64,000 bases of DNA from NCBI GenBank assembly GCA_919902105.1, contig CAKKQO010000037.1, positions 5,598 through 69,597 of the forward strand, in the 5' to 3' direction. How positions within the stretch are numbered: position 1 is the stretch's first letter; the number at the start of each line of letters is the position of its first letter. Of the stretch, positions 35,854-57,310 are shown piece after piece. The translations under genes were made by a program, and so were the position numbers. Origin of the DNA: Omnitrophica bacterium GWA2_41_15 (GTDB taxonomy: Bacteria; Omnitrophota; Gorgyraeia; Ghiorseimicrobiales; Ghiorseimicrobiaceae). The notes beneath the pieces are model-generated. The model had not been told where the DNA came from. It was given only the letters and a program-made list of their open reading frames with translations, and did no database searches.

Positions 35854-35882
35854 CCATGTAGACCTACGCGGTCTACATGGGT
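35854..35882. repeat. REP-like palindrome, copy 1: CCCATGTAGACC-tacgc-GGTCTACATGGG
   Basis: Perfect 12-bp stem with a 5-nt loop, immediately after the rpoN stop. Confidence 0.9.
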
Positions 35883-36381: not shown

Positions 36382-36404
36382 ATGTAGACCGCGTAGGTCT
36401 ACAG
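36382..36404. repeat. REP-like palindrome, copy 2 (inverted orientation, loop gcgta)
   Basis: tgtagaccgcgtaggtctaca. Confidence 0.9.
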
Positions 36405-40829: not shown

Positions 40830-40852
40830 ATGTAGACCGCGTAGGTCTACAT
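40830..40852. repeat. REP-like palindrome, copy 3 (loop gcgta), downstream flank of the RAYT gene
   Basis: atgtagaccgcgtaggtctacat. Confidence 0.9.
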
Positions 40853-40857
40853 AAGGT

Positions 40858-41523
40858 TTATTCTATAAACAAGTCTTTAATTCGCGTTAATTCTCTTTGG
40901 TATGAAATTCTATCCTCTGTAAATTTTTTATAATTTCCCGGCAGAACATTGATATGGCTATTAAAATGACAGTATCTTGGCGTTTCTTCAATGCCTAAGT
41001 ATTCTCTATACGAGGAGTACCGCCATAATTCAGGCTTATCTACTAAAAAAGCAGTTACAGGATTTAAATGTATGTACCGACTTAAATGAAGAAGTTGCTC
41101 TTCGTTCTCTACGAGTTTACTTTTAAATCGGCTTTCCCAGAGAGGTCCTTTACGCTTATGTTTTGTATTGAAATAACGTGTATAGCTATTGAGAATATTA
41201 TTTACAGAACGCGAAATTCCATTATCTTCTAATTGTTTAAAAATTAAATGAATATGGGTTGGCATTATGCAATATGCGATTATATCTACGATCTTGGCTT
41301 TTTGGCGAAGATAATCGCCAAGAACTATATTTATATCAGAATTGTTTGTTTCGTTCAACTCAAGAAAGCGCGCCAGGCATGAGGAGTGTTTGCCTATCAT
41401 GTAATATCTCACTGTTGTTAGGATTCTTTGATATTCCCAGTTGGTGTTAAATATGGTGAATCCGGCTATGCTCTTATTAAAGATATGATAAATTTCGCCC
41501 GTAACTAATGGATGTTGTCTCAT
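40858..41523 (-). CDS. REP-associated tyrosine transposase (RAYT; IS200/IS605 TnpA-like Y1 HUH enzyme)
   Basis: The HUH motif is present as IMPTHIHLIF and the catalytic Tyr motif as YIHLNPV. The gene is flanked by inverted REP copies 3 and 4. Confidence 0.8.
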   Translation of the reverse strand: MRQHPLVTGEIYHIFNKSIAGFTIFNTNWEYQRILTTVRYYMIGKHSSCLARFLELNETNNSDINIVLGDYLRQKAKIVDIIAYCIMPTHIHLIFKQLEDNGISRSVNNILNSYTRYFNTKHKRKGPLWESRFKSKLVENEEQLLHLSRYIHLNPVTAFLVDKPELWRYSSYREYLGIEETPRYCHFNSHINVLPGNYKKFTEDRISYQRELTRIKDLFIE

Positions 41524-41531: not shown

Positions 41532-41554
41532 ATGTAGACCTACGCGGTCTACAT
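41532..41554. repeat. REP-like palindrome, copy 4 (loop tacgc), upstream flank of the RAYT gene
   Basis: atgtagacctacgcggtctacat. Confidence 0.9.
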
Positions 41555-41803: not shown

Positions 41804-43264
41804 TTAGATATGCACTTCGCCTTTGGTGGCACCTGCTTCCCATCGGCCGACACCTGCCATTACGTCTTTAAAGCAAAGTTTGGCGAGTTCGTCAAAATCG
41901 CTTTCTAAGATACGGTGGATTCTTCCCGGCTTTGAATAAAATTCGCGCATACACCAAGCGCCTAACTCGCCTAATTGCTGAAGGGATAAATGGTCTGTTG
42001 GCATAACCGGATGCAGGAAATCCCATTGCAGGAAATTAATTGTTTTAGGGTTAATCCAGTTTTTCTTTAAGCCCATCCTCCACATCGGTGAATTCGGCGA
42101 AGGTGTAACATAGCCGATCCATAAGATATCCGGGTCAACCTCGTCGGTAAATTCATATCTTTGTTTGATAATCGCCTCGTTGTCATAATCAAAACCCATC
42201 ATAATATCGGCAACTACGGCGATGTCGTGTTTACGTAATATCTCAACTGTGCGTTTTATCTGCTCAACAGTAATGCCTTTGGCGATTTTCTTTAATTCTT
42301 CCGGCGTAGTAACTTCTATGCCGAATACGCCGATAAAAAGGCCGGTTTCTTTCATTAGGGGTAATATTGGCTCACAGTTAACCCAGTCAATCGCGCGCCC
42401 CAAAGAAACCCATTTAATCGGGTTATTATGGGCTTTTTTGAGTTCGCAGAATTTCTTTACCCTTTCCGGATTGGTATTAAAGTTATCGTCTTGTAAAACT
42501 ACTACTTTTACACCGTATTTTTTATGTAAGATATCCAATTCTTCAATTACCCTTTCTGGAGATTTTGCCCGCCATTTCAAGAAGTCCGAAGGGTTGCGCG
42601 GGTCATACTGGTCCCATTCATAACAGAATGTGCAGGCAGAGGGACATCCCCGCGAGGTGACCATATCCACAAACGGCTTCCAGTGGGTATGCCCGACATA
42701 TTTATCCATCGGGAATAAATCATAAGCCGGAAGCGGAAGTTTATCCAAGTCCATATTCAGCGGGCTGTAGGGGCCCATTACGGGTTTACCGCTGGCGCGG
42801 CTGGTGACACCGGCAACTTTCGTTAGGTCTTTTTTCTTGTCTATTGCCTCTATTAAATCGCCGAATGATTCTTCTTCGCCCATAACTACAAAATCTACGG
42901 CCGGATTTGCCGTAAGTGTTTCCGTAGGCATTGCTGAATACCAAAGCCCGCCGAAAATAATCTTGGTTTTAGGCAGAGCTTCTTTTATCCGTTTTGCTGC
43001 GTCGTTAAAATGCGCTACCACAGCGTATCCGCCGTAAGAATGTAATTGCTCCCCTAAAACTACGATATCAGGATTTTTTTCTTTTACTTTAGCGACCATT
43101 TCATCTGCCTGGATTTCAAGGGCCTTACAGTCTAAAACTTCTATCGTTTCGTATCCTTTTTCCCTGACATACGCCGCCCAGTGCGCGTAGAGCTGGTTAG
43201 GTGCTACATGTTTTCCATGCGTTGCCCAAGCGCCTACTTTCGGCATAACAAATAAAATTTTCAT
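41804..43264 (-). CDS. B12-binding-domain radical SAM enzyme (class B radical SAM methyltransferase-like)
   Basis: N-terminal cobalamin-binding region IVVLGEQLH...FGGLW and the radical SAM CxxxCxxC motif as SRGCPSACTFC. Confidence 0.8.
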   Translation of the reverse strand: MKILFVMPKVGAWATHGKHVAPNQLYAHWAAYVREKGYETIEVLDCKALEIQADEMVAKVKEKNPDIVVLGEQLHSYGGYAVVAHFNDAAKRIKEALPKTKIIFGGLWYSAMPTETLTANPAVDFVVMGEEESFGDLIEAIDKKKDLTKVAGVTSRASGKPVMGPYSPLNMDLDKLPLPAYDLFPMDKYVGHTHWKPFVDMVTSRGCPSACTFCYEWDQYDPRNPSDFLKWRAKSPERVIEELDILHKKYGVKVVVLQDDNFNTNPERVKKFCELKKAHNNPIKWVSLGRAIDWVNCEPILPLMKETGLFIGVFGIEVTTPEELKKIAKGITVEQIKRTVEILRKHDIAVVADIMMGFDYDNEAIIKQRYEFTDEVDPDILWIGYVTPSPNSPMWRMGLKKNWINPKTINFLQWDFLHPVMPTDHLSLQQLGELGAWCMREFYSKPGRIHRILESDFDELAKLCFKDVMAGVGRWEAGATKGEVHI

Positions 43265-43279
43265 TCTAACCCCTTCCTT

Positions 43280-44512
43280 TTAAGGTTTTTCAACAATTAA
43301 AACCGCGTTTATCCCGCCTCTTCCGCGGGAGATAATCAGTGCTTTATTTATTTTATATTCCCTTGCTTGGTTGGCGACATAATTTAAGCCGTTAGGGTTC
43401 GGATTTTCTAAGTTTATCGTCGGCGGAATTAAGCCGTTCTCCATTGCCAATACGGTGATAATTGTATCCAAAGCGCCAGATGCCCCTAATAAATTTCCGA
43501 ACATTGATTTGGGACAGCTAACTGGAATATCTTTGGTATTATTGCCGAACACTTCTTTTATCGCCGTAACTTCGCTATTATCCCATAAGTCTAGCGCTAA
43601 TCCGTCTAAACTGATAAAATCTATCTCTTCGGGGTTAGTTTTTGCGCGTTCTAATACTAATCTTATTGCTCTAGCTAATTGTTTGCCGTAAGTGTCAGGA
43701 TTGATTCGGTTTGCCCCATCGCAGGTTGAGGCATAACCGGAAATTGTTGCCATGATATTGGCGCCTCTTTTTTGGGCGCGCTCCACACTTTCTAAAACCA
43801 TAATCCCCGCGCCTTCTGCGATGACAAAGCCGGATTTATCTTTATCAAACGGACGATAGGCGGTTTCCGGATGTTCATTATCTTCTGAAAGTCCGCCGTA
43901 AGTATTGCAACAAAGTAACGCATAAGGCGTAACCGGCGCCTCCATCCCTCCGGCTAAAATCATATTTAGTTTTCCTTTTTGCAATGTTTTGTTAGCATAA
44001 CCGATTGCCTCAAGAGAGCTGGCGCGGTCAGCAACCACTGTTTTTGAAAATCCCTTTATGCCGTAATATATGGAAACTTGTCCTTGGGGCGCGGCCGGAA
44101 ACCAGGCAGATGCCATATAGGGAGAAACACCTTGGCGTCCTTCTATATACATATCGCGCAATTCCGTTTCGGCATAGAGCCAGCCGCCAAGAGCATTGCC
44201 GAGGAAAATGCCTATGAGATTCGGGTCTTCGTTTCTAATCTCTATACCGGCATCTTGCAGGGCAAGTTCTGAAGCGATCAGCGCCATATGGGAAAAGGCA
44301 TCAATTTTTTTTAAGAGCCGTTCTGGGATGTGGGAATATTTTTCCAGTTCATCAATTTGCCCGGCGATGTGCGATGGATATTTTGAAGCGTCAAAGCGGG
44401 TAATTTCTTTAATAAAAGACCTGCCGGATTTAACATTCGCCCAAAACTGGCGCTTTCCTATTCCGCTGGGCGCAACTACTCCCACACCTGTAACTGCAAT
44501 TTTGTCTAGCAT
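43280..44512 (-). CDS. Beta-ketoacyl-synthase-like protein lacking the catalytic Cys/His/His triad (chain-length-factor-like partner)
   Basis: The thiolase fold is present, but ADRASS replaces the A-C-SS active-site motif, and the two His motifs read SLDGLALD and GNLLGASG. Confidence 0.7.
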   Translation of the reverse strand: MLDKIAVTGVGVVAPSGIGKRQFWANVKSGRSFIKEITRFDASKYPSHIAGQIDELEKYSHIPERLLKKIDAFSHMALIASELALQDAGIEIRNEDPNLIGIFLGNALGGWLYAETELRDMYIEGRQGVSPYMASAWFPAAPQGQVSIYYGIKGFSKTVVADRASSLEAIGYANKTLQKGKLNMILAGGMEAPVTPYALLCCNTYGGLSEDNEHPETAYRPFDKDKSGFVIAEGAGIMVLESVERAQKRGANIMATISGYASTCDGANRINPDTYGKQLARAIRLVLERAKTNPEEIDFISLDGLALDLWDNSEVTAIKEVFGNNTKDIPVSCPKSMFGNLLGASGALDTIITVLAMENGLIPPTINLENPNPNGLNYVANQAREYKINKALIISRGRGGINAVLIVEKP

Positions 44513-44520
44513 CTATTTTA

Positions 44521-44549
44521 ACCATGTAGACCTACGCGGTCTACATGGT
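44521..44549. repeat. REP-like palindrome, copy 5 (perfect 12-bp stem) between the two KS genes
   Basis: accatgtagacctacgcggtctacatggt. Confidence 0.9.
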
Positions 44550-45811
44550 TATCCTTTGAATCGTTTCATAATTAACGATGAGTGGATTCCAGAAAATCCG
44601 CTTGAGGTTTTTAAAATCGTATTCACTTTTTTTTCGCGCGCTTTATTGGGGATATAATCCAAGTCGCATAAATGGTCTTTTCCTTCCTGATTTATTGTCG
44701 GCGGTAAAATATTTTTTTCAAAAATCATACAACCCGCCGTTAGTTCTATGGCGTTTGCCGCGGCCAAGGGATGGCCGATCATTGATTTAAGCGAGCTAAT
44801 CGGCAATTTATAGGCATAGTCGCCAAAGACCATTTTGTAAGCACTGGTTTCAAAGATGTCGTTCATTCGGGTAGATGAGCCGTGGGCATTTATGTAATCG
44901 ATATCTTGCGGCTTAATTTCAGCGTCTTTAAGCGCAAGACTAATACAATTTGCCATCGCTGTTCCGTCAGCCGGTAAGTCCGTCATGTGATATGCATTAC
45001 AGCTTGTGCCAAAACCGATGACCTCGGCATAGATATGGGCATTGCGTTTTAAGGCATGGTTTAATTCTTCTAAAACTAAAATGCCTGCCCCTTCAGAAAG
45101 CACAAATCCGTCACGCTTATTGTCAAATGGCCGGCTGGCTTTTTCCGGACAGTCGTTACGCACAGATAAGACGTTTACTACGTCAAAGGCGCCGAAAGTT
45201 ATCGGCGTAATCGGTGCCTCTGCCGCGCCTGCTATTATAATATCCGCCTCACCGTCTTGAATTACTTCAAGGGCATATCCTAAAGAATCAGTTCCGGCAG
45301 TGCATCCGGTAGAAATAGTGTTGCAAATTCCCTTTAGGCCGTAGCGGCTTGAGATTTCAATAGACGGTGTATTAAACATAGAGGCATCGTAGAGGTCAGG
45401 CCGAACTTTAGATGGGTCAATCGGCTCTTTTCCGTCGTTAGTCACTAAGGCAAATTCCTCTTCCATATATTTTGTGCCGCAGATGGCATTGGCTAAACTA
45501 ACGCCGATCACTTCAGGATTTTCTTTGGAGAAATTTAGTTTTGAGCCCTCTATTGCTATCTTGGCCGCACAGACTGCAAACTGCACATACCTATCCATAC
45601 GCATAACTTCATCATGCGTCAGGCCAAATTTAAAGGGGTTAAAATCGCGGACTTCCGCGGCGATTTTTGTGTTAAAAATAGAAACGTCAAAGCCGTCAAC
45701 TAGCTTTACCCCGGATTTTCCCGAGATAAATGCCTGATAGGCATTGTCTTTGCCGATGCCGTTAGGCGAAATAACGCCGATACCGGTTATGACGACGCGG
45801 CGTTTTAACAT
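44549..45811 (-). CDS. Beta-ketoacyl synthase (KS-alpha/FabF-like, catalytically competent)
   Basis: Active-site Cys in ISTGCTAGTDS, and the two His motifs NAHGSSTRMND and KSMIGHPLAAANA. Confidence 0.8.
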   Translation of the reverse strand: MLKRRVVITGIGVISPNGIGKDNAYQAFISGKSGVKLVDGFDVSIFNTKIAAEVRDFNPFKFGLTHDEVMRMDRYVQFAVCAAKIAIEGSKLNFSKENPEVIGVSLANAICGTKYMEEEFALVTNDGKEPIDPSKVRPDLYDASMFNTPSIEISSRYGLKGICNTISTGCTAGTDSLGYALEVIQDGEADIIIAGAAEAPITPITFGAFDVVNVLSVRNDCPEKASRPFDNKRDGFVLSEGAGILVLEELNHALKRNAHIYAEVIGFGTSCNAYHMTDLPADGTAMANCISLALKDAEIKPQDIDYINAHGSSTRMNDIFETSAYKMVFGDYAYKLPISSLKSMIGHPLAAANAIELTAGCMIFEKNILPPTINQEGKDHLCDLDYIPNKAREKKVNTILKTSSGFSGIHSSLIMKRFKG

Positions 45812-45814
45812 ATT

Positions 45815-46408
45815 TTATTTCTCCTCCTGCTCTATCCCGCTTACCTTAAACACAATCTTTCCTCCATCCGGACAAGTCACAGTATCAATAGCATCGGGTT
45901 CTTTCATAAACCAAAACTTTCCGCCAAAGTTTAAAGCAAATAATGCAGGAAAGGCGGTATGGAATGCCGCTCCGCAAAACCCGGGTATGCATTTTAGCCC
46001 GGTGGTTTCCCATTTATCGCCTACCTTATAACCAAAGCTGCATTTCCCTTCTGCCTTTACTACCTCAATGACCATCTTCTTTGGTTGAGGGCCCTTATAA
46101 TTAGGGTCTTTGGGAATAAATTCAACTTTCCCTTCCTTATTTAAGATTTCTACCTTAAACTCTAATTTCCCGCCATCTGGACAGGTAATCAGCAATGAAC
46201 GTTGGTTCTCCATAAAAGGAAATTTTGCACCCCAACTTAAGGCATAAATCACCGGGAATAATACATGCGCTAAGCCCAAACAGAAGAACTCGGGCGGATG
46301 GGTAAAATCCTCTAAAATCAGTTCATCGCCAATTTTATAGCCGTGATAGCAATGGCCTTCAACTTTATTGACCGTAAGTTTTAATTTAGGAAAAGGAGTA
46401 TCGATCAT
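45815..46408 (-). CDS. Cys-rich hypothetical protein built of two tandem repeats of about 95 aa, each ending in TCPDGGK
   Basis: Repeat 1 reads VEGHCYHGYKIGDE...ITCPDGGKLEFKV and repeat 2 reads AEGKCSFGYKVGDK...VTCPDGGKIVFKV. ATGA overlap with the upstream PanE-like gene. Confidence 0.4.
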   Translation of the reverse strand: MIDTPFPKLKLTVNKVEGHCYHGYKIGDELILEDFTHPPEFFCLGLAHVLFPVIYALSWGAKFPFMENQRSLLITCPDGGKLEFKVEILNKEGKVEFIPKDPNYKGPQPKKMVIEVVKAEGKCSFGYKVGDKWETTGLKCIPGFCGAAFHTAFPALFALNFGGKFWFMKEPDAIDTVTCPDGGKIVFKVSGIEQEEK

Positions 46409-47400
46409 TTAGTCACGGCCTCAATTAATTCCTCTTTACTCAAAAATTTTCCGGTTTTCTCCACCTGATGCACCATTTCAACTAGTTTTTCGTTTAGGGG
46501 TGCCTTGAGATTATTTTTCTTAGCTAGATTCACAAACTCGCCGTTGATGTAGTCTATCTCAGATGTGCGATTTCTTTTAATACTTTGTAATATAGAGCCG
46601 TAAAGCGGCTGGCGGCTTAGATTAAACATAATATTAGAAAAAATCTTCGCCGCTTCATCACGCGGCATATTTGCAAGCGCCACATATCGTCTAATGTCGA
46701 ATTCCGGTAGCGACACCGGCTGAATTCCGCATTTTTCTATGATATTAAAGGTTTCTTTAAGCAGTTGAATGCTTATCGCCGCCATCTCTACCTCTTTAAA
46801 AGTCTCTTGCATGCTGAGGCCTACGACAGCGGGGATGCAGTTATTTAAGTTGATAAATAACTTTGTCCATTTCATCCCCTTTATGTGTTCAGAAACACTA
46901 ACTTTAAAAGTGCTACTTAAGGATTGCTCTACCTCTTTTAATTTATCGTCAATTTTTCCGTCTAACCGACCAATAATGCAGCCACCTTCAAAGTTATGGG
47001 TGATATGGCCGTAATCCAAATAAGTTGAGCCGAACATTACGATGCTGGAAATAATATCCGCGCCTTTAGCTGACTTGGCGACAATTTCATCAGCGCGTAT
47101 CCCGTTTTGCGTAGTTAAAATTATGCTATTTACTAAAAATGTTTCGTTTTGTGAAATTGCTTCTTCTATGTCTTGCGTTTTGACCGCTAATATTACTAAA
47201 TCCGCGGGTGTATCCATTTGCGCGCGCGCGTTTATTTTTACTGATAATTTGCCGCGTACGCCTTCAATCTTTAAACCATTTTTATTGATAAATTCGGCCT
47301 GTTCTTTTTTAGCGACTAAGATGACGTCTGCACCCTTATCCTTTAGATACGCCGCGACTAATCCGCCGATTGCCCCTGCGCCAATGACTGCTATTCTCAT
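46405..47400 (-). CDS. Ketopantoate-reductase-family (PanE/ApbA) NAD(P)-dependent oxidoreductase
   Basis: MRIAVIGAGAIGG Rossmann N-terminus with an ApbA_C-like C-terminus. Confidence 0.7.
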   Translation of the reverse strand: MRIAVIGAGAIGGLVAAYLKDKGADVILVAKKEQAEFINKNGLKIEGVRGKLSVKINARAQMDTPADLVILAVKTQDIEEAISQNETFLVNSIILTTQNGIRADEIVAKSAKGADIISSIVMFGSTYLDYGHITHNFEGGCIIGRLDGKIDDKLKEVEQSLSSTFKVSVSEHIKGMKWTKLFINLNNCIPAVVGLSMQETFKEVEMAAISIQLLKETFNIIEKCGIQPVSLPEFDIRRYVALANMPRDEAAKIFSNIMFNLSRQPLYGSILQSIKRNRTSEIDYINGEFVNLAKKNNLKAPLNEKLVEMVHQVEKTGKFLSKEELIEAVTK

Positions 47401-47672
47401 TTTGGGTATCCGTATTTTTTATAGTCAAACCCGCTTTTTTCTAACAAGCGCACCATCATGCTATAAAATGGCGATGGCACGTCCGAGAAAAAGGCGGAAA
47501 TTACGTCTTGTTCTCCTACTTCTCCGGCGTTACGCCTAAAGGCATTTTCCTCCGCCTTTTTAGTGACAACGCTTTCGGTAATCCGACGGTGAAAGACCGG
47601 AATTTTCGCGATCATTTCTTTAAATTTTTGCTGAGTCTCACTATCCCAGTTCATTTTATATTTTTTACGCAA
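47397..47672 (-). CDS. Small PCP_red-like domain protein (protochlorophyllide-reductase 57-kDa subunit C-terminal-like, PF08369)
   Basis: MNWDSETQQKFKEMIAKIPVFHRRITESVVTKKAEENAFRRNAGEVGEQDV fits the W..EA...L..IP.F.R pattern. Confidence 0.4.
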   Translation of the reverse strand: MRKKYKMNWDSETQQKFKEMIAKIPVFHRRITESVVTKKAEENAFRRNAGEVGEQDVISAFFSDVPSPFYSMMVRLLEKSGFDYKKYGYPK

Positions 47673-49200
47673 ACCACGACGTAACCAAAGATTTACCTGT
47701 AGGGTTTAAGTCAATATTTACGTGTTTGGTTTGAGTGTATTCTAAGAGACCTTCTTTGCCAAGTTCGCGGCCAAAACCACTTTCTTTGTATCCCCCAAAA
47801 GGCGCTTCGTTATAAAAACCGCCATAGGTATTTATCCAGACGGTTCCACAGCGCAGTTGCTGTGCTACTTGATTGGCGCGGGTTAGGTCCTTGGTCCAGA
47901 CCATCGCGGCTAAGCCAAAGCGTGTATTATTTGCGATTTTAACCGCTTCATCTTGTCCGGAAAATTTAATAATTGATAGCACCGGCCCGAATATTTCCTC
48001 TTGCGCAATACGCGCGTTATTATCCACATCCGTAAATATCGTTGGCTCCAAATAAAACCCATTTTCCAAACCATGTAGACCTACGCGGTCTACATCGGGG
48101 ATGGTGCCGCCAGAGATGAGTTTGGCTTCATGTTTACCGATTTCGATATAATTTAAAACGTTTTGCCGATGCTCAGCTGAAATTAATGGACCAAAGTCGG
48201 TGTCGTAAGATGCGGCATTACCGATTTTTAACTTTTTAGTTTTTGTAACCAATAAATCAATAAATTTATCGTATATTTTATCTTCAAGTATTAATCGTGA
48301 GCCGGCGGTGCACATCTGCCCTTGATTCATAAAGATTGCCGACATTGAACCGCCAACTGCCGCCTCTATATCGCAGTCGGCAAATACAATATTTGGGCTT
48401 TTGCCGCCCAATTCAAGAGAGAGTTTTTTGGTGTTGCCTGATGCCATTTTCATTATTTCTTTTCCCGCGGTATTTCCCCCGGTAAAAGAGACCATATCTA
48501 CGAGTTTACTCTCACAGATTGTTTTACCTACCTCATTAGCGGTTCCGGTAATAATATTCACTACGCCTTTGGGTAAGCCAGCCTCTTGTATTATTTTGGC
48601 TAATTCTAAGCAGCTTAATGAAGCAAGTTGTGAGGGTTTAAAAACTATCGTGTTTCCCAAAATAATTGCCGGTGCTATTTTCCAAGCCGCCATTAAAAAC
48701 GGATAATTCCAAGGGATAATCTGGCCGATAACGCCTATTGGCTCGCGAAATGTAAAACTTAGCGCCGGATTATGTATAGGTATGGTTTCGCCTTTAACCG
48801 CAGATGCCGCAGCTGCAAAATACTCAAAGGCCGATGCGGCTGTCGGGATATCAATAAAAGTGGTTTGTTTTATAGTTTTTCCGGTGTCTTGCGATTCCAA
48901 CTTGGCTAATTCCGCTGCTTCTTCCCTTATAATCTGGGCAATTTTTTGTAGATAGGGCGCGCGTTCAATAATCTGCATTTTAGGCCAGTCGCCGCTATCA
49001 AAGGCGAATCTAGCGGCTTTAATCGCTTTTTCTGTATCTTTAGCGTCTGCGGCAGGAAATTCCGCCAATGTTTCTCCAATAGAAGGATTAATACTGGCAA
49101 TAGTATTTTTATTACCGGCTTCTACAAATTCGCCATTAATATACGTTTGATATTTTTTCATTTTTTTCTCGCTACTCACTTCGTGGGTGCTAGTTTCCAC
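47665..49200 (-). CDS. NAD(P)+-dependent aldehyde dehydrogenase
   Basis: ELGGKSP, catalytic Cys in QGQMCTAGSRL, and EEIFGPV. The loop TIPDVDRVGLHGLEN is encoded by REP copy 6. Confidence 0.85.
   Translation of the reverse strand: METSTHEVSSEKKMKKYQTYINGEFVEAGNKNTIASINPSIGETLAEFPAADAKDTEKAIKAARFAFDSGDWPKMQIIERAPYLQKIAQIIREEAAELAKLESQDTGKTIKQTTFIDIPTAASAFEYFAAAASAVKGETIPIHNPALSFTFREPIGVIGQIIPWNYPFLMAAWKIAPAIILGNTIVFKPSQLASLSCLELAKIIQEAGLPKGVVNIITGTANEVGKTICESKLVDMVSFTGGNTAGKEIMKMASGNTKKLSLELGGKSPNIVFADCDIEAAVGGSMSAIFMNQGQMCTAGSRLILEDKIYDKFIDLLVTKTKKLKIGNAASYDTDFGPLISAEHRQNVLNYIEIGKHEAKLISGGTIPDVDRVGLHGLENGFYLEPTIFTDVDNNARIAQEEIFGPVLSIIKFSGQDEAVKIANNTRFGLAAMVWTKDLTRANQVAQQLRCGTVWINTYGGFYNEAPFGGYKESGFGRELGKEGLLEYTQTKHVNIDLNPTGKSLVTSWFA
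48073..48095. repeat. REP-like palindrome, copy 6, lying inside the aldehyde dehydrogenase CDS in frame and encoding DVDRVGLH
   Basis: atgtagacctacgcggtctacat within ORF 47665-49200. Confidence 0.85.
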
Positions 49201-50168
49201 AAATCAAAGATGCGGTTAAACGGGGCATACCAGCGGGATAGTTTTGCCATATCGCCTTTTAGTTTAAGCTTGTGTTGTGTTGCCGCAGCAAAAGGGTCAA
49301 GTTTTCTCTCGAAAACCAAGCGCCAGACAGCCGCAGGCCCCGAGATAACAAATTCCGCGTCTTCATCGTTGGTTACTTCTTCAATTTTTCCTTTATTAAA
49401 GTGAAAATTATAAACTTTATTTTCTTCATCAACCCTTATTGCTAATTTCGTGGTTAAATTAAGCGCCTCTCCCTTTTCTTTTGCTTCCTTATCCTCATTA
49501 ACCAGAGAAACAATTTTATTAATATGATCTTTTGAAAATAAATCGTATTTTTTGACCGTATCAACCGCGTAGGTTGATATTGGTTTTAGGTTAGAAAATG
49601 TTGCGGGAGCGTTTCTCAGGGTAAGGTTTACTTTGCAGGCTTCTTCTAACATTTCAAGCCATGAGAATGCCTCTTTGAAAGATGACCCGACTGAGACAAT
49701 GCCGTGTTTTTTTAAGACAACGATATTGCTTAAGCTTAATGCATCTAAAACAGGTAAAACATTGGTTACAATCGGGCCACCCTGCTCAATTACCGGGATG
49801 TTAGACAGATAAAGACGCGCTTCGTAGCTGAATATATCTAATGTGTTAAATTTAGCATAAAAGGCAGTAGTAAAGTTTGGGTGGGCATGGATAATGGCAT
49901 TAATCCCCTCTTTTTCATAAGCCGCCAAATGCATTGCTAATTCTGATGTGGGTTTTAAGTTAGTTCCAGAAACAGGTTTACCTTTCTTATCAACGATTAT
50001 GATTTCCTCTTCGCTTAAATAACCCAGATAAGCATTATGCGCGGTGACTAAAAACTTATCCTTATCCAGGCGTAGAGAAATATTGCCGCAGGGGCCGCTG
50101 ACAAAAGAGCGGTTATGCAGTTCTTTCGCCCAGAATACTATTTCTTTACGTTCTCTTGCATATAACAT
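49176..50168 (-). CDS. Class II aldolase/adducin-family protein fused to a C-terminal SCP2 sterol-carrier domain
   Basis: Aldolase_II-type N-terminus (HAHP, GIVSVG) and a C-terminus ISGPAAVWRLVFERKLDPFAAATQHKLKLKGDMAKL that looks SCP2-like. Confidence 0.6.
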   Translation of the reverse strand: MLYARERKEIVFWAKELHNRSFVSGPCGNISLRLDKDKFLVTAHNAYLGYLSEEEIIIVDKKGKPVSGTNLKPTSELAMHLAAYEKEGINAIIHAHPNFTTAFYAKFNTLDIFSYEARLYLSNIPVIEQGGPIVTNVLPVLDALSLSNIVVLKKHGIVSVGSSFKEAFSWLEMLEEACKVNLTLRNAPATFSNLKPISTYAVDTVKKYDLFSKDHINKIVSLVNEDKEAKEKGEALNLTTKLAIRVDEENKVYNFHFNKGKIEEVTNDEDAEFVISGPAAVWRLVFERKLDPFAAATQHKLKLKGDMAKLSRWYAPFNRIFDLWKLAPTK

Positions 50169-50177
50169 TATATTTAC

Positions 50178-50204
50178 CCCATGTAGACCTACGCGGTCTA
50201 CATG
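50178..50204. repeat. REP-like palindrome, copy 7
   Basis: ccatgtagacctacgcggtctacatgg. Confidence 0.9.
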
Positions 50205-50219
50205 GTTAGCTATTTATCC

Positions 50220-50651
50220 TTAGTTTAAGGATTCGTTCTGCGGCGTAATCACCTTTGTTTTGTTAACACAGGTTTTTATCCCTAAAAAAGTCTTGGCGTT
50301 TTGATCGGGAAACTTATCTAATTTAACATCTTTCCCTTTTTGTATTTCAAGCGCAACAGCGTGCCGCTGGGCAAGTATTTTTACCGCCTGCGCGCCCACC
50401 GGAAAAGTATTATCGTCAAAACCAAACAGATATACTTTATCTATGGCCTTTAAGAAAAATAAATGCCCTAAGCCGTTATCAGAAATAAGCGTAGATTTTA
50501 TTTTCCTTTTTTCTAATGCTTTTGCGACTATCTTTGCCCCCAAAAGATACGGACGCATCTCAGGGATAAGGATATGTTTATCCTTTACTTCTCTATAAAA
50601 ATCTTCCGGGGGTATGCCATAAATAAGTATGTATTTATTTATCCTTTCCAT
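50220..50651 (-). CDS. Truncated eIF-2B/MtnA-family paralogue (C-terminal Rossmann-like half only)
   Basis: KIKSTLISDNGLGHLFFLKAIDKVYLFGFDDNTF aligns to the MtnA stretch IPATLIVDSAAGSLM..GKIDAVIVGADRV but lacks the NKIGT motif. Confidence 0.35.
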   Translation of the reverse strand: MERINKYILIYGIPPEDFYREVKDKHILIPEMRPYLLGAKIVAKALEKRKIKSTLISDNGLGHLFFLKAIDKVYLFGFDDNTFPVGAQAVKILAQRHAVALEIQKGKDVKLDKFPDQNAKTFLGIKTCVNKTKVITPQNESLN

Positions 50652-51637
50652 TTTTTCGCAAACTCCTGCGGCGTATATATTCCGTCAAAAAAGATTAAGC
50701 CGCTGATTAGTTCATTAGGCACAACGTCAAAAGCCGGATAAAGCGCATCTTGGCTTTTGGAAGTAAGCCATTTATTTCTAAATAAGAGCATTTCTTCCTT
50801 GGGGCGGTATTCTATTTTTATGTCTTTTATGCTTTTAGTTTCTCCCGGAGGCTGGACAAAAGAATAAAACGGTATACGGAAATGTTTTGCTAAAACCGCA
50901 AGCTGATAGGTTCCGGTTTTATTGGCAATATCGCCGCCAATGGTGACGCGGTCAGCGCCAGTTAGGACCATATCTATGCGGCATCTTTTTAAAATGTCCG
51001 CCGCTTGATTATCGCAAAAAAGATACACGGAAATATCAGCCCGGTTTAATTCCCAGGTGGTAAGGCGCGAGCCTTGAAAATACGGCCGGGTTTCTGCGGC
51101 AAAAAATTCTACATGTTTACCTAATTTTTCCGCTTCATTTGTTAATGCAACTAATTCGCCTGAAATATTACAATGGGTTAAGATACGCGTATTTTGGGGA
51201 ATAACTTGCGCGGCAAGTTTTGCCCGGTACCTGCGCGCATTCTGTATTGACTCGATATAATTGATTACGGTATTTTTAAGCCCGGCAAAAAAATTATCAT
51301 TTTTGTCGTTCTTAAGCATATTGATTAATTCGTCTTTTAGCTGTCCAAAGGCAAAGGTTGGCCGGCTTTTAATAAATTTTTCGGTTGTTTCTTCTAGAAG
51401 CGGCAGGAACTTATTTAATGCGTCTATTTTTCTATTTTTTGCCTCGAGAATAAGTATGTAATAAAATAAAAGCACCTGCCCAAAAGCACGCGTCTTCATT
51501 TCCGCCAGCACCGAAAGTGCGTTTTTTAGATTTTTTACCTTGATGTATTTTACGTCAAAAGGAAGCCGCGTTTCGTCTAAAACCGCGATATGCCCGCCCT
51601 TAAAGATAGCTGGATGGAACAACAATGATTCTTTCAT
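50639..51637 (-). CDS. mtnA: eIF-2B alpha/beta/delta-family isomerase (methylthioribose-1-phosphate isomerase or ribose-1,5-bisphosphate isomerase)
   Basis: LTGADRVTIGGDIANKTGTYQLAVLAKHFRIPFY. Confidence 0.75.
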   Translation of the reverse strand: MKESLLFHPAIFKGGHIAVLDETRLPFDVKYIKVKNLKNALSVLAEMKTRAFGQVLLFYYILILEAKNRKIDALNKFLPLLEETTEKFIKSRPTFAFGQLKDELINMLKNDKNDNFFAGLKNTVINYIESIQNARRYRAKLAAQVIPQNTRILTHCNISGELVALTNEAEKLGKHVEFFAAETRPYFQGSRLTTWELNRADISVYLFCDNQAADILKRCRIDMVLTGADRVTIGGDIANKTGTYQLAVLAKHFRIPFYSFVQPPGETKSIKDIKIEYRPKEEMLLFRNKWLTSKSQDALYPAFDVVPNELISGLIFFDGIYTPQEFAKKWKG

Positions 51638-52386
51638 TACTTACTTTCTAAGAGTTTAATTGCCTCAAACGCAACTTTGATAATCTTCTGTTCGGCTTCG
51701 TAGTAATTGATATTCGTAAAACCCATTTCACCGGTAATTACGTTATCCGAGACGGCCATAATTGAGGCAGCCTTACAGTTATTTAACTGGGCAATGGTCA
51801 GGAAGCTTGATGAAACCATATCCACGGCAATTGCGCCTTTAGATATAAAACTTTCAACGATTTGGCGCGTTTCGCGCAAGAGCGCGTCAGTTGTCCAAAT
51901 CGGGCCTTTGTGGTAACGCACACCTAAATTTTGCGCCGCCTTAACTAAGGCATCGGTTAATTTATTGTCTGGTATTGTTTTAAAATTGTCTTTTACGTAG
52001 TATGGGGTAACGCCATCGCCGCGGATGGCAGAGGTTACAATAATGATGTCTCCTATTTGTATATCTTCGCGAAGTGCACCACTTGAGCCGGTGCGAATTA
52101 AATTATCTACCCCGCCGTTTGTGAGGATTTCGGCGCTGATGGCGCTGTCTGCAGAATACCTGCCTCCGTTTCCTACCGTAACCTTTGTGCCGTTAAAATC
52201 TCCGGAATAAAAGGTATATTCCATAAAAGAGAAGTTCCTCACCGGATTTTTTATCTGTTTTAAGGCCGCATCGCGGCGGTCAGCTGGGCCGGTGACAAGC
52301 GCATATTTTCCAAAGTCATGCGGTTTTATCCCAAGCATATATAATAATTCTTTCGCCGTTAAGTGAATATCTTTCTTCATTGGCAT
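51637..52386 (-). CDS. Purine/uridine/MTA nucleoside phosphorylase family protein (PNP_UDP_1)
   Basis: ALVTGPADRRDA...TGSSGALRE...DMVSSS pattern. Confidence 0.7.
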   Translation of the reverse strand: MPMKKDIHLTAKELLYMLGIKPHDFGKYALVTGPADRRDAALKQIKNPVRNFSFMEYTFYSGDFNGTKVTVGNGGRYSADSAISAEILTNGGVDNLIRTGSSGALREDIQIGDIIIVTSAIRGDGVTPYYVKDNFKTIPDNKLTDALVKAAQNLGVRYHKGPIWTTDALLRETRQIVESFISKGAIAVDMVSSSFLTIAQLNNCKAASIMAVSDNVITGEMGFTNINYYEAEQKIIKVAFEAIKLLESK

Positions 52387-53876
52387 TTCAATGCCTCCTT
52401 ATCAACCTTACCTACCCTGTTTTTTGGTATAGAGCCAACAAATTCTATTCTCTGTGGCACTTTAAAGTGCGCAAGGTGCTCTTGGCAAAAAACCCTTAAA
52501 TCACTCTCGCAAAGATCGCTGCGTTTGTTTTTAACGACAAATGCCTTAATAGTTTCCCCTCTTAACTTATCCGGCACTCCGATAACCGCGGCCTCTAAAA
52601 TATCTTGATGCTTATGCAGGGCTGCTTCTACTTCCGGCGCATAGACTAATTGTCCGGAAACCTTAATCATTTCTTTTTTTCTGCCTGCGATATATAAAAA
52701 CCTTTCTTCATTAAACCTGCCTAAATCTCCGGTATAAAACCAGCCGTTTTTTAGCACACGGTTTGTTTCTTGCGGGTTTTTATAATAACCCTTCATTACT
52801 ACCCAGCTTTTTATGGCTACCTCTCCTATTTCACCAGGCGCAACCGGCTCATCTTTTTCGTCGATGATGGAGATTTCAATCCATGGCGCGGGCTTACCGA
52901 CGCTGGCGATATTTTTACTACCTAAGGGGATAACTGTATTCGGCGGGCAGGTTTCGGTTAGCCCCCAGCCGTTTAAAAGATGCGTATTCGGGCAGTATTG
53001 ATGAAAACGCGCCAGGACATCGGAGCTGCTGGGCGCGCCAAAGACCACCATCCAGCGCAAGGAAGATAAATCATGCCTCTCGAACTCTTTTAGCTGTAAA
53101 ATCGCATAATACATTGAAGGCACAATATGAAAACAAGTTACTTTATACCTTTCAATGTTCTTTAAGAATTCAAGTGGTGAAAACCGTTCCATTAGAACCA
53201 GTGTAATATTAAAACAGACACAGTTCTGGATATAGATTAATCCGCCGCTGTGTGAAAGCGGAAGACTTGAAAGTTTTATGTCTTTCTCGGTCAGGTCAAC
53301 AAAATATTTCATTGCCTCGGGCGAGCCGGATAGATGTTTATAGGTAAGTAATACACCCTTGGGATTTCCGCTGGTGCCCGAAGTATACATTATTAAGGCA
53401 TCGTCAGTTTCCGAGACTTGATTTTGCGGGGTAATACTTTCGGCATTATGCATAATTTCTTCAAAACTAATGAATTCGCCGCTATCTTTCCCCAAAATAA
53501 TAATATTTTCCAAAGATTTTACCTGTTTTTTAATTTCTTCCAAAGATACATCCGGCTTTCTTGCGGTAATAAGGAGTTTAGTTTCGGAATGTTTCAGGCA
53601 GGAAATTAACTCTTCGTTCTTAAACATAAAATCAAGAGGGACAACCGTCACGCCTAAGCAAAACAAAGATAAGTAACTATAGACATATTCCGGGCAATTC
53701 GGAAGATAAATTGCTGCCTTATCCTGTTTCTTTACGCCATTTTTTTTAAGCGCCTCGGCTAACTTAAAGACGTTATCTTTTAGTCGGCTAAAGCTTACGG
53801 CGTTATCCTTAAAGATTAAGGCAGGTTTATCAGGCGAGATTTTGGCGTTGTGGATTAGGAGCTTTATTGTATCCAT
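52377..53876 (-). CDS. AMP-dependent synthetase/ligase (acyl-CoA synthetase family)
   Basis: AMP-binding motif I YTSGTSGNPKGV, plus GWGLTE and a C-terminal Lys motif. Confidence 0.85.
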   Translation of the reverse strand: MDTIKLLIHNAKISPDKPALIFKDNAVSFSRLKDNVFKLAEALKKNGVKKQDKAAIYLPNCPEYVYSYLSLFCLGVTVVPLDFMFKNEELISCLKHSETKLLITARKPDVSLEEIKKQVKSLENIIILGKDSGEFISFEEIMHNAESITPQNQVSETDDALIMYTSGTSGNPKGVLLTYKHLSGSPEAMKYFVDLTEKDIKLSSLPLSHSGGLIYIQNCVCFNITLVLMERFSPLEFLKNIERYKVTCFHIVPSMYYAILQLKEFERHDLSSLRWMVVFGAPSSSDVLARFHQYCPNTHLLNGWGLTETCPPNTVIPLGSKNIASVGKPAPWIEISIIDEKDEPVAPGEIGEVAIKSWVVMKGYYKNPQETNRVLKNGWFYTGDLGRFNEERFLYIAGRKKEMIKVSGQLVYAPEVEAALHKHQDILEAAVIGVPDKLRGETIKAFVVKNKRSDLCESDLRVFCQEHLAHFKVPQRIEFVGSIPKNRVGKVDKEALKCQ

Positions 53877-53916: not shown

Positions 53917-54053
53917 AATTTAAGGCAGTTTGTCAAATGATTTTATTGTCCGCTGTATGTTTTTTACTGTTACTTTTAGTTTTTTCGCTGGGTTGGCATG
54001 AAAATAATACAAGGCATAAAGGCAGAGTTAATGTTATAAAAAATATTTTTTTG

Positions 54054-57264: not shown

Positions 57265-57310
57265 ACCGATTTCACCCCCGCGGTGCACGTTTACGTACAC
57301 CGCGGGGGTG
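57265..57310. repeat. GC-rich palindrome CACCCCCGCGGTG-N12-CACCGCGGGGGTG between pdxJ and acpS
   Basis: Read directly from the sequence. It abuts the acpS start codon. Confidence 0.6.

What the first reader, a model, noticed from the sequence alone, without database searches (positions are those of the whole stretch)
48073..48095. REP element apparently inserted in-frame within the aldehyde dehydrogenase coding sequence
Copy 6 of the palindrome lies inside ORF 47665-49200 and is translated as DVDRVGLH. It sits within an unusually long GG...GFYLEPT loop (15 residues; typical ALDHs have about 5-12), consistent with a 24-30 nt in-frame insertion of a mobile palindrome that the protein tolerated. 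This would be a rare case of a REP contributing coding sequence.
Basis: partly seen in the sequence, partly recalled or inferred. Interest (0 to 1): 0.65.

Follow-up and report, generated by a model that had tools for sequence, protein, structure and literature searches.

The report
Mobile palindrome translated inside an enzyme gene
A 23-base mobile palindrome (a REP element, whose likely transposase gene lies 7 kb away) sits in-frame in an intact aldehyde dehydrogenase gene of an uncultured Omnitrophota bacterium and adds seven amino acids to a loop; such cases are rare but already described, and the unusual part is that related genomes carry flipped or different palindromes at the same codon position.

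Summary
ATGTAGACC-TACGC-GGTCTACAT at 48073-48095 is one of seven copies in the window (0 expected by chance). Six are intergenic; this one lies in-frame in ALDH gene 47665-49161(-), encoding D356-H363 (DVDRVGLH).

The REP reading is supported:
- A Y1/HUH transposase gene (40858-41523) is flanked by two inverted copies. Its only match among solved structures is E. coli TnpA_REP.
- The 19-nt core occurs only in Omnitrophota MAGs, mostly as inverted doublets in one genome.

The ALDH is functional: dN/dS is about 0.05 and the catalytic Cys and Glu are conserved. Of 120 homologues, 111 have loops of 6-10 residues; this one has 15. The net insert is 21 nt, not 24-30.

New here: all six close relatives but one carry a palindrome at the same codon position.
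- One (dS 1.2) has the identical 21 nt.
- One has the loop flipped (VDLRGLH).
- The closest relative has a different perfect palindrome (VHPRGAH), with 8/21 differences, all four stem changes compensatory.
- One nested lineage has lost it, and the sister lineage lacks it.
- A distant orthologue carries an independent palindrome in the same loop.
- A second in-frame palindrome lies in the neighbouring aldolase-SCP2 gene (49559-49579).

Intragenic REPs are already described (Di Nocera 2013; Rickettsia RPEs), so this is a new member of a known kind with an informative turnover pattern.

The parts
48073..48095 (+). REP copy in-frame within the ALDH gene. On the coding (minus) strand it reads G-AT GTA GAC CGC GTA GGT CTA CAT = D356-H363.
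   Evidence: An exact 23/23 match to five intergenic copies. As RNA in its context the hairpin folds at -19 kcal/mol, z = -4.2.
47665..49161 (-). Aldehyde dehydrogenase gene (498 aa, identical to MEK6715319.1). It is intact and under purifying selection.
   Evidence: dN/dS is 0.05-0.075 against five orthologues. E250 and C284 are invariant across 45 homologues. The BADH equivalog model scores below its cutoff (588.9 < 668.6).
40858..41523 (-). RAYT-like Y1/HUH transposase gene (221 aa), sitting inside the operon between the ACP gene and the cyclase gene.
   Evidence: Pfam Y1_Tnp 41.9 bits, above the cutoff of 23. NCBIfam REP_Tyr_transpos 70.5 bits, below the cutoff of 80. The only PDB hit is 4er8, E. 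coli TnpA_REP, with the HUH motif (tHiHl) and the Tyr (rYIhlNPV) aligned. Syntenic orthologues are present in L005 and L009.
40830..40852 (-). REP copy 5 nt downstream of the RAYT stop codon, in inverted orientation relative to the copy at 41532.
41532..41554 (+). REP copy 8 nt upstream of the RAYT start codon.
35856..35878 (+). Intergenic REP copy between two convergent genes.
36382..36404 (-). Intergenic REP copy (1 mismatch) between the MOSC and MoaC genes.
44524..44546 (+). Intergenic REP copy between the two ketosynthase genes, with a 14-bp stem. Other genomes have other REP stems at the same site.
50181..50203 (+). Intergenic REP copy between the small IF-2B-like gene and the aldolase-SCP2 gene. 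In L005, L009 and L057 these two genes overlap, so the site is empty there.
49559..49579 (-). A second in-frame palindrome of a different stem family (TATCAACC-TACGC-GGTTGATA on the coding strand, translated ISTYAVDT). It lies in the inter-domain linker of the aldolase_II-SCP2 gene 49176-50168.
   Evidence: Orthologues carry covarying palindromes at the same position. The ATCAACC stem also occurs intergenically in L003.
57273..57310 (.). Intergenic inverted doublet of degenerate palindromes of the (G)TGCACC/ACACC-GCGGG-GGTG type. It is probably a relic of another REP family.

Best explanation
The palindrome at 48073-48095 is a genuine copy of a GTAG-type REP family of an uncultured Omnitrophota bacterium. 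The family's cognate RAYT-like transposase gene (40858-41523) lies in the same operon, flanked by two inverted copies.

The REP entered the ALDH gene as a 21-nt, stop-free, in-frame unit between Pro-Asp and Gly-Leu-Glu-Asn. That position is a variable loop between two beta-strands of the catalytic domain. The insert is translated as VDRVGLH in an enzyme that remains under strong purifying selection.

Shown:
- exact identity to the intergenic copies;
- association with a RAYT-like gene;
- restriction of the insert to one small clade;
- an intact, constrained gene;
- location in a loop.

Inferred: the insertion happened once, in the ancestor of the clade. Since then the hairpin has been rewritten in place in step with each genome's REP population. 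The route could be RAYT-catalysed exchange of equal-length hairpin cassettes, gene conversion or template switching between REP copies, and recombination between the arms that flips the loop. This would explain four things:
- the element is 21/21 identical in a genome whose synonymous sites are saturated;
- the loop is flipped in another genome;
- the closest relative carries a different perfect palindrome;
- the reading frame is preserved throughout.

I see the insert as tolerated passenger sequence, not an adaptation of the enzyme.
For: - Copy number: 7 copies against 0 expected; 6 are intergenic, with shared outer flanks CCAT...ATGGTTA.
- RAYT: the gene has aligned HUH and Tyr motifs, its only solved relative is TnpA_REP (4er8), and it is flanked by inverted REPs.
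- Distribution: the 19-nt core occurs only in Omnitrophota MAGs. JAPLLY01 has dozens, mostly as inverted doublets 6 nt apart, and PCWA01 has about six.
- Loop lengths: 111 of 120 homologues have 6-10 residues; the query has 15.
- Loop DNA across orthologues:
  - window: GTAGACC-GCGTA-GGTCTAC;
  - L005: identical;
  - L001: same stems, loop TACGC;
  - L002: GTGCACC-CCCGC-GGTGCAC;
  - L003 and L004: degenerate or other palindromes;
  - L009 and L011: none.
- Phylogeny: the NJ tree makes the palindrome-bearing sequences one clade, with L009 nested inside and L011 as sister.
- Selection: dN/dS is 0.05-0.075; dS is 1.22 for window-L005 and 0.69 for window-L002.
- Conservation anomaly: only 3 of 458 seven-codon windows elsewhere in the gene are identical between window and L005, yet the REP codons match 21/21.
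- Divergence anomaly: window and L002 differ at 8 of 21 positions, and all four stem changes are compensatory.
- The same turnover, with conserved outer flanks, occurs at orthologous intergenic sites (KS1|KS2, ACP|RAYT, IF-2B|aldolase).
- Structure: the insert lies between strands 347-350 and 374-377 at pLDDT about 75. It aligns as a 5-residue gap against 4mpb.
- Reality of the sequence: the same protein was recovered in NCBI, JGI, ENA and Logan assemblies.
Against: - Transposition or conversion by this RAYT has not been shown. The NCBIfam RAYT model scores below its curated cutoff (70.5 < 80).
- All seven copies in the window lie within 14.4 kb around the RAYT gene, with none in the other ~50 kb. 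Genome-wide dispersal is therefore shown only for related genomes.
- The L002-type palindrome could not be shown to be multicopy. The metagenome scan found only L002's own contig plus unrelated high-GC hits.
- A distant orthologue (P0098/L063) carries an independent palindrome in the same loop, while its nearest relatives have short loops. Repeated insertion at this site is therefore possible, and a single origin within the clade is not proven.
- Solvent exposure of the loop was not computed.
Confidence: 0.85

Rival explanations
1. Recurrent independent insertion at a hot spot. The ALDH loop (CCN-GAY|GGN) is a preferred or uniquely permissive target. Each lineage acquired its own genome's REP separately, rather than inheriting one insertion that was later rewritten.
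For: - P0098/L063 (62% identical) has an unrelated-lineage palindrome, G-TAGAGACG-AATGATCATG-CGTCTCTA-G, at the same loop. Its nearest relatives (67-71% identical) have short loops.
- IS200/IS605-type HUH enzymes, the relatives of RAYTs, insert next to specific short target sequences (established knowledge).
- The closest pair, window and L002, carry different palindromes.
Against: - Within the clade all palindromes share the same boundaries, length (19 + 2 nt) and frame.
- This reading needs at least 4-5 independent insertions at the same nucleotide, against one insertion plus conversions.
- No allele with an intact ancestral loop is found inside the clade. L009 has a loop shorter than ancestral, which looks like a deletion.
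- Intergenic orthologous sites show the same stem swaps within conserved outer flanks.
Confidence: 0.25
2. The in-gene hairpin is a selected RNA or DNA structure, for example a ribosome pause site, an RNase barrier that segments the operon mRNA, or a protein-binding site. It would be kept by compensatory mutation, and its resemblance to REPs would reflect shared function rather than mobility.
For: - Stem covariation occurs across orthologues in both the ALDH and the aldolase-SCP2 genes.
- The hairpins are stable: -19 and -11.7 kcal/mol, z about -4.
- The intergenic copies all lie between co-directional or convergent genes of one long operon.
Against: - The in-gene copy is 23/23 identical to the intergenic copies and to those flanking a RAYT gene.
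- The sister lineage, one nested lineage and all distant orthologues do without the hairpin.
- Eight changes in 21 nt between genomes 87% identical in DNA is too many for stepwise compensatory mutation.
- No Rfam family matches.
Confidence: 0.08
3. The palindromes are operator sites of an operon regulator (for example the PadR-family protein at the head of the cluster) or transcription terminators. They would not be mobile REPs.
For: All seven copies in the window cluster within one 14.4-kb stretch of a single operon. A PadR gene heads the syntenic clusters.
Against: - The same 19-mer is scattered over more than 20 contigs of JAPLLY01 as inverted doublets, and over several PCWA01 contigs.
- No run of T follows the hairpins.
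- Inverted copies bracket a RAYT-like gene.
- Occupied sites in the window are empty in related genomes, where the flanking genes overlap.
Confidence: 0.03

Closest known systems
Intragenic GTAG/CGTC REPs (Di Nocera, De Gregorio & Rocco 2013, BMC Genomics 14:522; PMC3733652)
   Same: These are short GTAG-tagged palindromes, linked to RAYT genes, that lie entirely within ORFs and are translated. They were reported in several species, most abundantly in Opitutus terrae. The GTAG end can also supply TAG stop codons. Here the REP begins with GTAG, is bracketed around a RAYT-like gene, and encodes 7 residues. In related loci other copies supply C-terminal residues.
   Different: That survey catalogued insertions within single genomes. 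Here the same codon position can be followed across at least 6 related genomes. That comparison shows loop flips, stem-family swaps and a loss. The host phylum (Omnitrophota) and the stem families are new.
Rickettsia palindromic elements (RPE-1 and others; Ogata et al. 2000, cited in PMC3733652 as refs 13-14; otherwise from my own knowledge)
   Same: They are palindromic mobile repeats inserted in-frame into functional protein genes, typically in surface-compatible positions.
   Different: RPEs are about 100-150 bp and add 30-50 residues. No cognate RAYT is known for RPE-1. The element here is a minimal 21-23-nt REP hairpin that adds 7 residues.
REP/REPIN-RAYT systems of Pseudomonas, Stenotrophomonas and E. 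coli (Nunvar 2010 and 2013; Bertels & Rainey 2011; Messing 2012, structure 4er8)
   Same: - A single-copy HUH/Y1 transposase gene is flanked by inverted REPs.
- The REPs carry a GTAG motif.
- Inverted doublets (REPINs) are present in one related genome.
- Orthologous, syntenic RAYTs are flanked by different REP classes in related strains (PMC3686654). The same is seen here for window, L005 and L009.
   Different: - The RAYT here is embedded inside a biosynthetic operon.
- It scores below the NCBIfam RAYT cutoff, and its first ~75 N-terminal residues are unmatched.
- The GTAG is part of the stem rather than a 5' tail.
- The copies in the window are singlets clustered around the RAYT gene.
Quasipalindrome template-switch mutagenesis and small hairpin-loop inversions (E. 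coli quasipalindrome correction; chloroplast loop flip-flops; from my own knowledge)
   Same: These processes produce concerted, compensatory changes in both arms of a hairpin and inversion of its loop, without changing its length. That is the pattern seen between window, L001 and L002.
   Different: Those processes act within one hairpin. They do not explain why the in-gene copy matches the other copies in the same genome exactly.

Membership tests
REP (repetitive extragenic palindrome), GTAG type | A short (20-40 bp) palindrome able to form a stem-loop | tested here: met
   The core has a 9-bp stem and a 5-nt loop, extending to a 14-bp stem at 44519-44551. RNA folding gives -19 to -23 kcal/mol, z = -4 to -8.
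REP (repetitive extragenic palindrome), GTAG type | Many dispersed copies in a genome, predominantly extragenic | tested here: inconclusive
   The window has 7 copies, 6 of them intergenic, but all lie within 14.4 kb. Dispersal over many contigs is shown only for related genomes: JAPLLY01 with dozens and PCWA01 with about 6. The rest of the window's own genome was not available.
REP (repetitive extragenic palindrome), GTAG type | A conserved GTAG tetranucleotide at one end | tested here: met
   AT-GTAG-ACC is present in all 7 copies. However, sister stem families (GTGCACC, ATCAACC, TTCCACC, GTAACACC) lack GTAG.
REP (repetitive extragenic palindrome), GTAG type | A cognate RAYT gene flanked by REPs in inverted orientation | tested here: met
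   Copies at 40830-40852(-) and 41532-41554(+) bracket ORF 40858-41523. The same arrangement occurs in L005 and L009 with their own REP stems.
RAYT (REP-associated tyrosine transposase, Y1/HUH) | Y1_Tnp domain with an HUH motif and a catalytic tyrosine | tested here: met
   Pfam PF01797 scores 41.9 bits, above the cutoff of 23. PTHIHLIF aligns to PEHMHCIW, and RYIHLNPV aligns to DYIYINPV of 4er8 TnpA_REP.
RAYT (REP-associated tyrosine transposase, Y1/HUH) | Passes the curated NCBIfam equivalog model NF047646 | tested here: not met
   It scores 70.5 bits against a cutoff of 80, and only profile positions 42-146 are matched. It is the best and only NCBIfam hit. I therefore call the protein RAYT-like.
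RAYT (REP-associated tyrosine transposase, Y1/HUH) | Binds and cleaves its REP as single-stranded DNA | not testable with these tools
   This needs biochemistry.
Aldehyde dehydrogenase superfamily (PF00171) | Full-length ALDH fold with the catalytic Cys, the general-base Glu and the NAD-binding motifs | tested here: met
   The PDB E-value is 2e-134 over residues 5-488. E250 (ELGGKSP), C284 (QMCTAG) and E389-F391-G392-P393 are invariant across 45 homologues. The model has pLDDT 89.
Betaine-aldehyde dehydrogenase (TIGR01804 / NF009725 equivalogs) | A score above the curated equivalog cutoff | tested here: not met
   The scores are 588.9 < 668.6 and 537.3 < 593. The substrate is unknown and the gene sits in a biosynthetic cluster.
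Rickettsia RPE-type in-frame palindromic elements | A 100-150-bp element of the RPE sequence families | tested here: not met
   The element is 21-33 nt and unrelated in sequence. The resemblance is in outcome only.

The most novel reading that the evidence does not exclude
REP hairpins at fixed, anciently occupied sites, including sites inside coding sequence, are actively rewritten in place. Equal-length hairpin cassettes would be exchanged between copies, by RAYT-catalysed strand transfer or hairpin-templated conversion. REP families would then evolve in concert without net transposition. A by-product would be a hypervariable 7-residue peptide cassette (VDRVGLH, VDLRGLH, VHPRGAH, VHPLGAH and others) in otherwise highly conserved proteins. 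Because the reading frame fixes orthology exactly, these in-gene sites would be the cleanest natural record of that process.
Probability: 0.3. Interest if true: 0.7.

Novelty: new member of a known kind. Interest (0 to 1): 0.45.

Why it matters
REPs are by definition extragenic, and how REP families stay homogeneous within a genome yet differ between close relatives is still debated. The options are replicative transposition by RAYTs or in-place conversion.

An in-frame REP in a conserved enzyme gives an orthologous site whose boundaries are fixed to the nucleotide by the reading frame. Here that site carries one of the following, depending on the genome:
- the identical REP;
- its loop-flipped form;
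- a different perfect palindrome;
- a decayed palindrome;
- nothing.

This makes the question directly testable with more genomes or with the purified RAYT-like protein.

Three further points:
- It extends REP/RAYT systems to Omnitrophota, a largely uncultured phylum.
- For annotators, a REP hit inside a gene need not signal a pseudogene.
- For protein engineers, this ALDH loop accepts at least 7-13 extra residues.

Tried and rejected
1. Operator or terminator reading: rejected. The element is dispersed as inverted doublets in another genome, no T-run follows the hairpins, and it is associated with a RAYT-like gene.
2. Known RNA family: rejected. The Rfam gathering scan of the window found only four tRNAs.
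3. Assembly artefact: rejected. The identical protein occurs in NCBI, JGI, ENA and Logan assemblies.
4. Pseudogene: rejected. dN/dS is about 0.05 and the catalytic residues are intact.
5. Betaine-aldehyde dehydrogenase label: not adopted, because the scores are below the curated cutoffs.
6. Test of whether the L002-type palindrome (GTGCACC-CCCGC-GGTGCAC) is a multicopy REP: inconclusive. The metagenome scan returned only L002's own contig and four unrelated high-GC hits. Only related GTGCAC-stem palindromes were seen, at L057's ACP|cyclase site and as a degenerate doublet at window 57273.
7. Idea that GLEN after the insert is REP-derived (GGTTTGGAAAAT resembles the REP tail GGTTAAAAT): rejected. 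L011 has GLEN without a palindrome, and distant homologues have the homologous G-F-D-K.
8. Whether the aldolase-SCP2 linker palindrome is a net insertion: it is not. The linker has a similar length in about 60 homologues. It is a REP-type palindrome occupying variable linker sequence, not a clear length gain.
9. Solvent accessibility of the loop: could not be computed, because model coordinates are not exposed.
Full report
**1. The observation**

Positions 48073-48095 read ATGTAGACC-TACGC-GGTCTACAT, a perfect 9-bp stem with a 5-nt loop. A search allowing 3 mismatches finds seven copies, and none of 100 dinucleotide-preserving shuffles gave any match:

| Copy | Strand | Note |
|---|---|---|
| 35856 | + | |
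| 36382 | - | one mismatch |
| 40830 | - | |
| 41532 | + | |
| 44524 | + | |
| 48073 | + | inside the ALDH gene |
| 50181 | + | |

Six copies lie in short spacers between genes of a long minus-strand operon. They share outer flanks: CCAT on one side and ATGGTTA(A/G)A on the other. These extend the stem to as much as 14 bp.

The copy at 48073 lies inside ORF 47665-49200(-). The real start is the ATG at 49161, because the 498-aa product is identical to NCBI protein MEK6715319.1, annotated in a Candidatus Omnitrophota MAG. On the coding strand the element reads CCC G-AT GTA GAC CGC GTA GGT CTA CAT GGT TTG, that is P-D-V-D-R-V-G-L-H-G-L, residues 355-365.

**2. It is a REP with a cognate transposase-like gene**

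ORF 40858-41523(-) encodes 221 aa and is bracketed by the copies at 40830(-) and 41532(+), which are in inverted orientation.

- It matches Pfam Y1_Tnp above threshold (41.9 bits).
- Its best and only NCBIfam hit is REP-associated tyrosine transposase (70.5 bits), which is below the curated cutoff of 80.
- Its only hit among all solved structures is 4er8, E. coli TnpA_REP. The HUH motif (PTHIHLIF against PEHMHCIW) and the catalytic tyrosine (RYIHLNPV against DYIYINPV) are aligned.
- No tnpB gene is adjacent; the neighbours are an ACP gene and a cyclase gene.

A scan of one genome per GTDB species for the 19-nt core found it only in Candidatus Omnitrophota MAGs. One genome (JAPLLY01) has dozens of copies on more than 20 contigs, mostly as inverted doublets 6 nt apart, which is the REPIN arrangement. 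PCWA01 has about six, and three further MAGs have one or two. JAPLLY01 also has a 73% identical RAYT orthologue next to such a doublet. Rfam has no matching family.

One caveat remains. In the window all seven copies lie within 14.4 kb around the RAYT gene. Genome-wide dispersal is therefore shown for relatives, not for this genome.

**3. The host gene is a working ALDH, and the element is an insertion in a loop**

- The protein aligns end to end with solved ALDHs. Against S. aureus BetB (4mpb) the E-value is 2e-134, with a 5-residue gap in BetB exactly at R-V-G-L-H.
- The general-base Glu (E250), the catalytic Cys (C284) and the EEIFGPV motif are invariant in a 45-sequence alignment.
- Against five orthologues dN/dS is 0.05-0.075.
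- It scores below the curated betaine-aldehyde dehydrogenase cutoffs, so I call it only an ALDH.
- Between the conserved GG and GFY there are 15 residues. Among 120 homologues, 111 have 6-10.
- The commonest loops are P-K-G-F-[DE]-K-GFY. Here the loop is P-D-[VDRVGLH]-G-L-E-N-GFY. The net insert is therefore 7 codons, or 21 nt (GTAGACCGCGTAGGTCTACAT), not 24-30 nt.
- In the AlphaFold model (mean pLDDT 89.2) the segment lies between strands 347-350 and 374-377. Local pLDDT is about 75, against 95-97 on either side.

That the loop is solvent-exposed is an inference from ALDH structures in general.

**4. Relatives**

Seven 90%-identity clusters are at least 80% identical to the window's ALDH. I fetched DNA for all of them. 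In every case the gene sits in the same operon.

| Locus | Loop-region DNA | Peptide | Note |
|---|---|---|---|
| window | GAT GTA GAC CGC GTA GGT CTA CAT | DVDRVGLH | |
| L005-L008 (PCWA01) | AAC GTA GAC CGC GTA GGT CTA CAT | NVDRVGLH | following GLEN deleted |
| L001 | AAT GTA GAC CTA CGC GGT CTA CAC | NVDLRGLH | same stems, loop inverted |
| L002 | TCT GTG CAC CCC CGC GGT GCA CAT | SVHPRGAH | closest relative (94% aa identity outside the loop); a different perfect 8-bp palindrome |
| L003 | GTA CAC CCC AGG GGT GGA CAG | | degenerate, plus six extra codons |
| L004 / L057 | CCCACC-TCGGA-GGTGGG | | |
| L009 | no palindrome | LPGK | loop shorter than ancestral |
| L011 | no palindrome | PKNKGLEN | |

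Further cluster members give NIDLRGLH and VHPLGAH.

An NJ tree built without the loop columns puts all palindrome-bearing sequences in one clade. L009 is nested inside it and L011 is its sister.

The genome that shares VDRVGLH (PCWA01) also carries the same REP elsewhere, including next to its RAYT. Orthologues without a palindrome have short loops.

**5. The palindrome does not evolve like the rest of the gene**

- Window against L005: dS is 1.22 and third-position identity is 0.59. Only 3 of 458 seven-codon windows elsewhere in the gene are fully identical. The seven REP codons nevertheless match 21/21, in the most variable loop of the protein.
- Window against L002: DNA identity is 87%, yet the element differs at 8 of 21 positions. 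All four stem differences form two compensatory pairs, and the loop changes from GCGTA to CCCGC.

So the element is too conserved in one comparison and too different in the other. It is always a perfect or near-perfect palindrome of the same length and frame.

The same behaviour is seen at orthologous intergenic sites:

| Site | Locus | Sequence |
|---|---|---|
| Between the two ketosynthase genes | window | CCAT-GTAGACC-GCGTA-GGTCTAC-ATGGTTAAAA |
| | L003 | CCAT-ATCAACC-TCCGC-GGTTGAC-ACGGTTTAAAA |
| | L009, L057 | CCATTA-GTAACACC-GCGTA-GGTGTTAC |
| | L005 | no spacer |
| Upstream of the RAYT | window, L005 | GTAGACC type |
| | L009 | ATTCCACC-CCCGC-GGTGGAAT |
| RAYT position | L057 (lacks the RAYT) | solo CCAT-GTGCAC-TGCGGTA-GTGCAC-ATGGTTAAAA |

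Different REP classes flanking orthologous RAYTs have been described in Pseudomonas and Stenotrophomonas (PMC3686654).

**6. Mechanism**

*Shown.* A REP copy identical to its genomic siblings is translated within a constrained enzyme. The reading frame used (GTA GAC ...) is stop-free in both loop orientations, whereas the +1 frame on each strand contains TAG.

*Inferred.* One insertion occurred in the clade ancestor. Afterwards the hairpin was rewritten in place in step with each genome's REP population. Candidate processes are:
- exchange of equal-length hairpin cassettes by the HUH enzyme, which cuts single-stranded DNA at set positions beside a hairpin;
- gene conversion or template switching between copies;
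- recombination between the arms, which would flip the loop.

Because all variants are 7+5+7 nt plus AT, any such exchange keeps the frame. I put about 0.5 on this in-place model.

*Main rival.* The main alternative is repeated insertion at a hot spot. It is strengthened by P0098/L063, an ALDH only 62% identical to the window's. Its nearest relatives (67-71% identical) have short loops. Yet it carries an independent palindrome, G-TAGAGACG-AATGATCATG-CGTCTCTA-G, after the same P-D. This shows that the loop is at least a permissive site that has been used repeatedly. Within the clade, however, the identical boundaries, length and frame argue for one origin. So does the absence of any intact ancestral-type allele.

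I found no evidence that the extra residues serve the enzyme. They look like tolerated passenger sequence.

**7. A second in-frame palindrome**

At 49559-49579, inside the aldolase_II-SCP2 gene (49176-50168), lies TATCAACC-TACGC-GGTTGATA on the coding strand. It is translated ISTYAVDT in the linker between the two domains.

Orthologues carry covarying palindromes at the same place:

| Locus / protein | Palindrome or peptide |
|---|---|
| L001 | GTGTCAACC-CCCGC-GGTTGACAC (TVSTPAVDT) |
| P0128, P0129 | loop-flipped form (STAGVD) |
| L005 | TTCCACC-CCCGC-GGTGGAA, the stem of L009's RAYT-flanking REP |
| L009 | GTCTCAGCC-CCCGG-GGCTGAGAC |
| P0130 | IPTPGVGI, which I back-translate by hand as a possible CCCACC-type palindrome (DNA not fetched) |

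The ATCAACC stem also occurs intergenically in L003. Here the linker is no longer than in about 60 distant homologues. It is therefore REP-type sequence occupying a variable linker, not a clear net insertion.

**8. Comparison with what is known, and novelty**

Intragenic, translated REPs have been catalogued. Di Nocera et al. 2013 found GTAG and CGTC REPs entirely within ORFs in several species, most in Opitutus terrae and Rickettsia conorii. They also noted that GTAG ends can supply TAG stop codons (PMC3733652). Rickettsia RPEs are the classic larger example.

The finding is therefore a new member of a known kind, in a new phylum. What I did not find described in the two REP papers I consulted (one literature search) is the cross-genome record at one codon position: identity, loop flip, stem-family swap, decay and loss.

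- Interest: 0.45.
- Most novel reading not excluded: RAYT-linked in-place cassette exchange as the engine of concerted REP evolution (probability about 0.3, interest 0.7 if true).

Noticed in passing
window 49559-49579 (inside gene 49176-50168, minus strand): A second in-frame palindrome of a different stem family (TATCAACC-TACGC-GGTTGATA, translated ISTYAVDT) lies in the linker of the aldolase_II-SCP2 fusion protein. Orthologues carry covarying or loop-flipped palindromes at the same position.
   Followed up: yes
window 57273-57310: An intergenic 18+18-nt inverted doublet (CACCCCCGCGGTGCACGT / ACGTACACCGCGGGGGTG) is built from two degenerate CACC-CCCGC-GGTG-type hairpins. It is probably a relic REPIN of the stem family seen in L002's ALDH.
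   Followed up: partly
window 34500-54000 (minus strand); syntenic in L001, L003, L005, L009 and L057: A conserved Omnitrophota biosynthetic operon is headed by a PadR gene. It encodes AMP-ligase, PNP_UDP_1, IF-2B/MtnA-like (plus a small IF-2B-like gene), aldolase_II-SCP2, ALDH, DUF2621-like, ApbA-type reductase, two ketosynthases, a B12-radical SAM enzyme, ACP, [RAYT], cyclase, cupin, polyketide cyclase, MFS and SDR. The product is unknown. The RAYT gene sits inside the operon, and L057 has only a solo palindrome at that position.
   Followed up: partly
L015:818-836 (PCWA01000103.1): The same REP lies in-frame (…DLTSVDLRGLHGYSS…) inside an open frame that spans the whole 8-kb locus (over 2,666 codons). 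This would be a further coding insertion in a giant protein. I did not check its orthologues.
   Followed up: no
L005:16484-16502, L041:386-404, L054:6017-6035, L056:3591-3609: REP copies overlap the 3' ends of ORFs and supply their last residues, for example the RAYT of PCWA01 ending …EPSVDLRGLHG*. In L054 a REP doublet forms the C-terminal tail.
   Followed up: no
L063:1164-1189 (P0098, ENA ERZ23498405): An ALDH orthologue only 62% identical carries an independent 26-nt palindrome (TAGAGACG-AATGATCATG-CGTCTCTA, translated VETNDHASL) after the same Pro-Asp of the loop. Its closest relatives have short loops.
   Followed up: partly
L005:11484-11522, L009:9946-9984, L057 about 9953-9990: A separate conserved 17-bp-stem hairpin (TAACTTTACATTTTAGT-CAATG-ACTAAAATGTAAAGTTA) occurs in intergenic spacers of related loci: between aldolase and ALDH in L005, L009 and L057, and also between the unnamed ORF after the ApbA-type reductase gene and the first ketosynthase gene in L005. 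It is AT-rich and unrelated to the REP. The window has no spacer at the aldolase/ALDH junction.
   Followed up: no
window 53865-53929: A cluster of overlapping AT-rich palindromes, including the exact 16-mer TAGTAAAATTTTACTA twice 9 nt apart, lies just upstream of the AMP-ligase gene (52377-53876). It could be an operator or promoter region of the operon.
   Followed up: no
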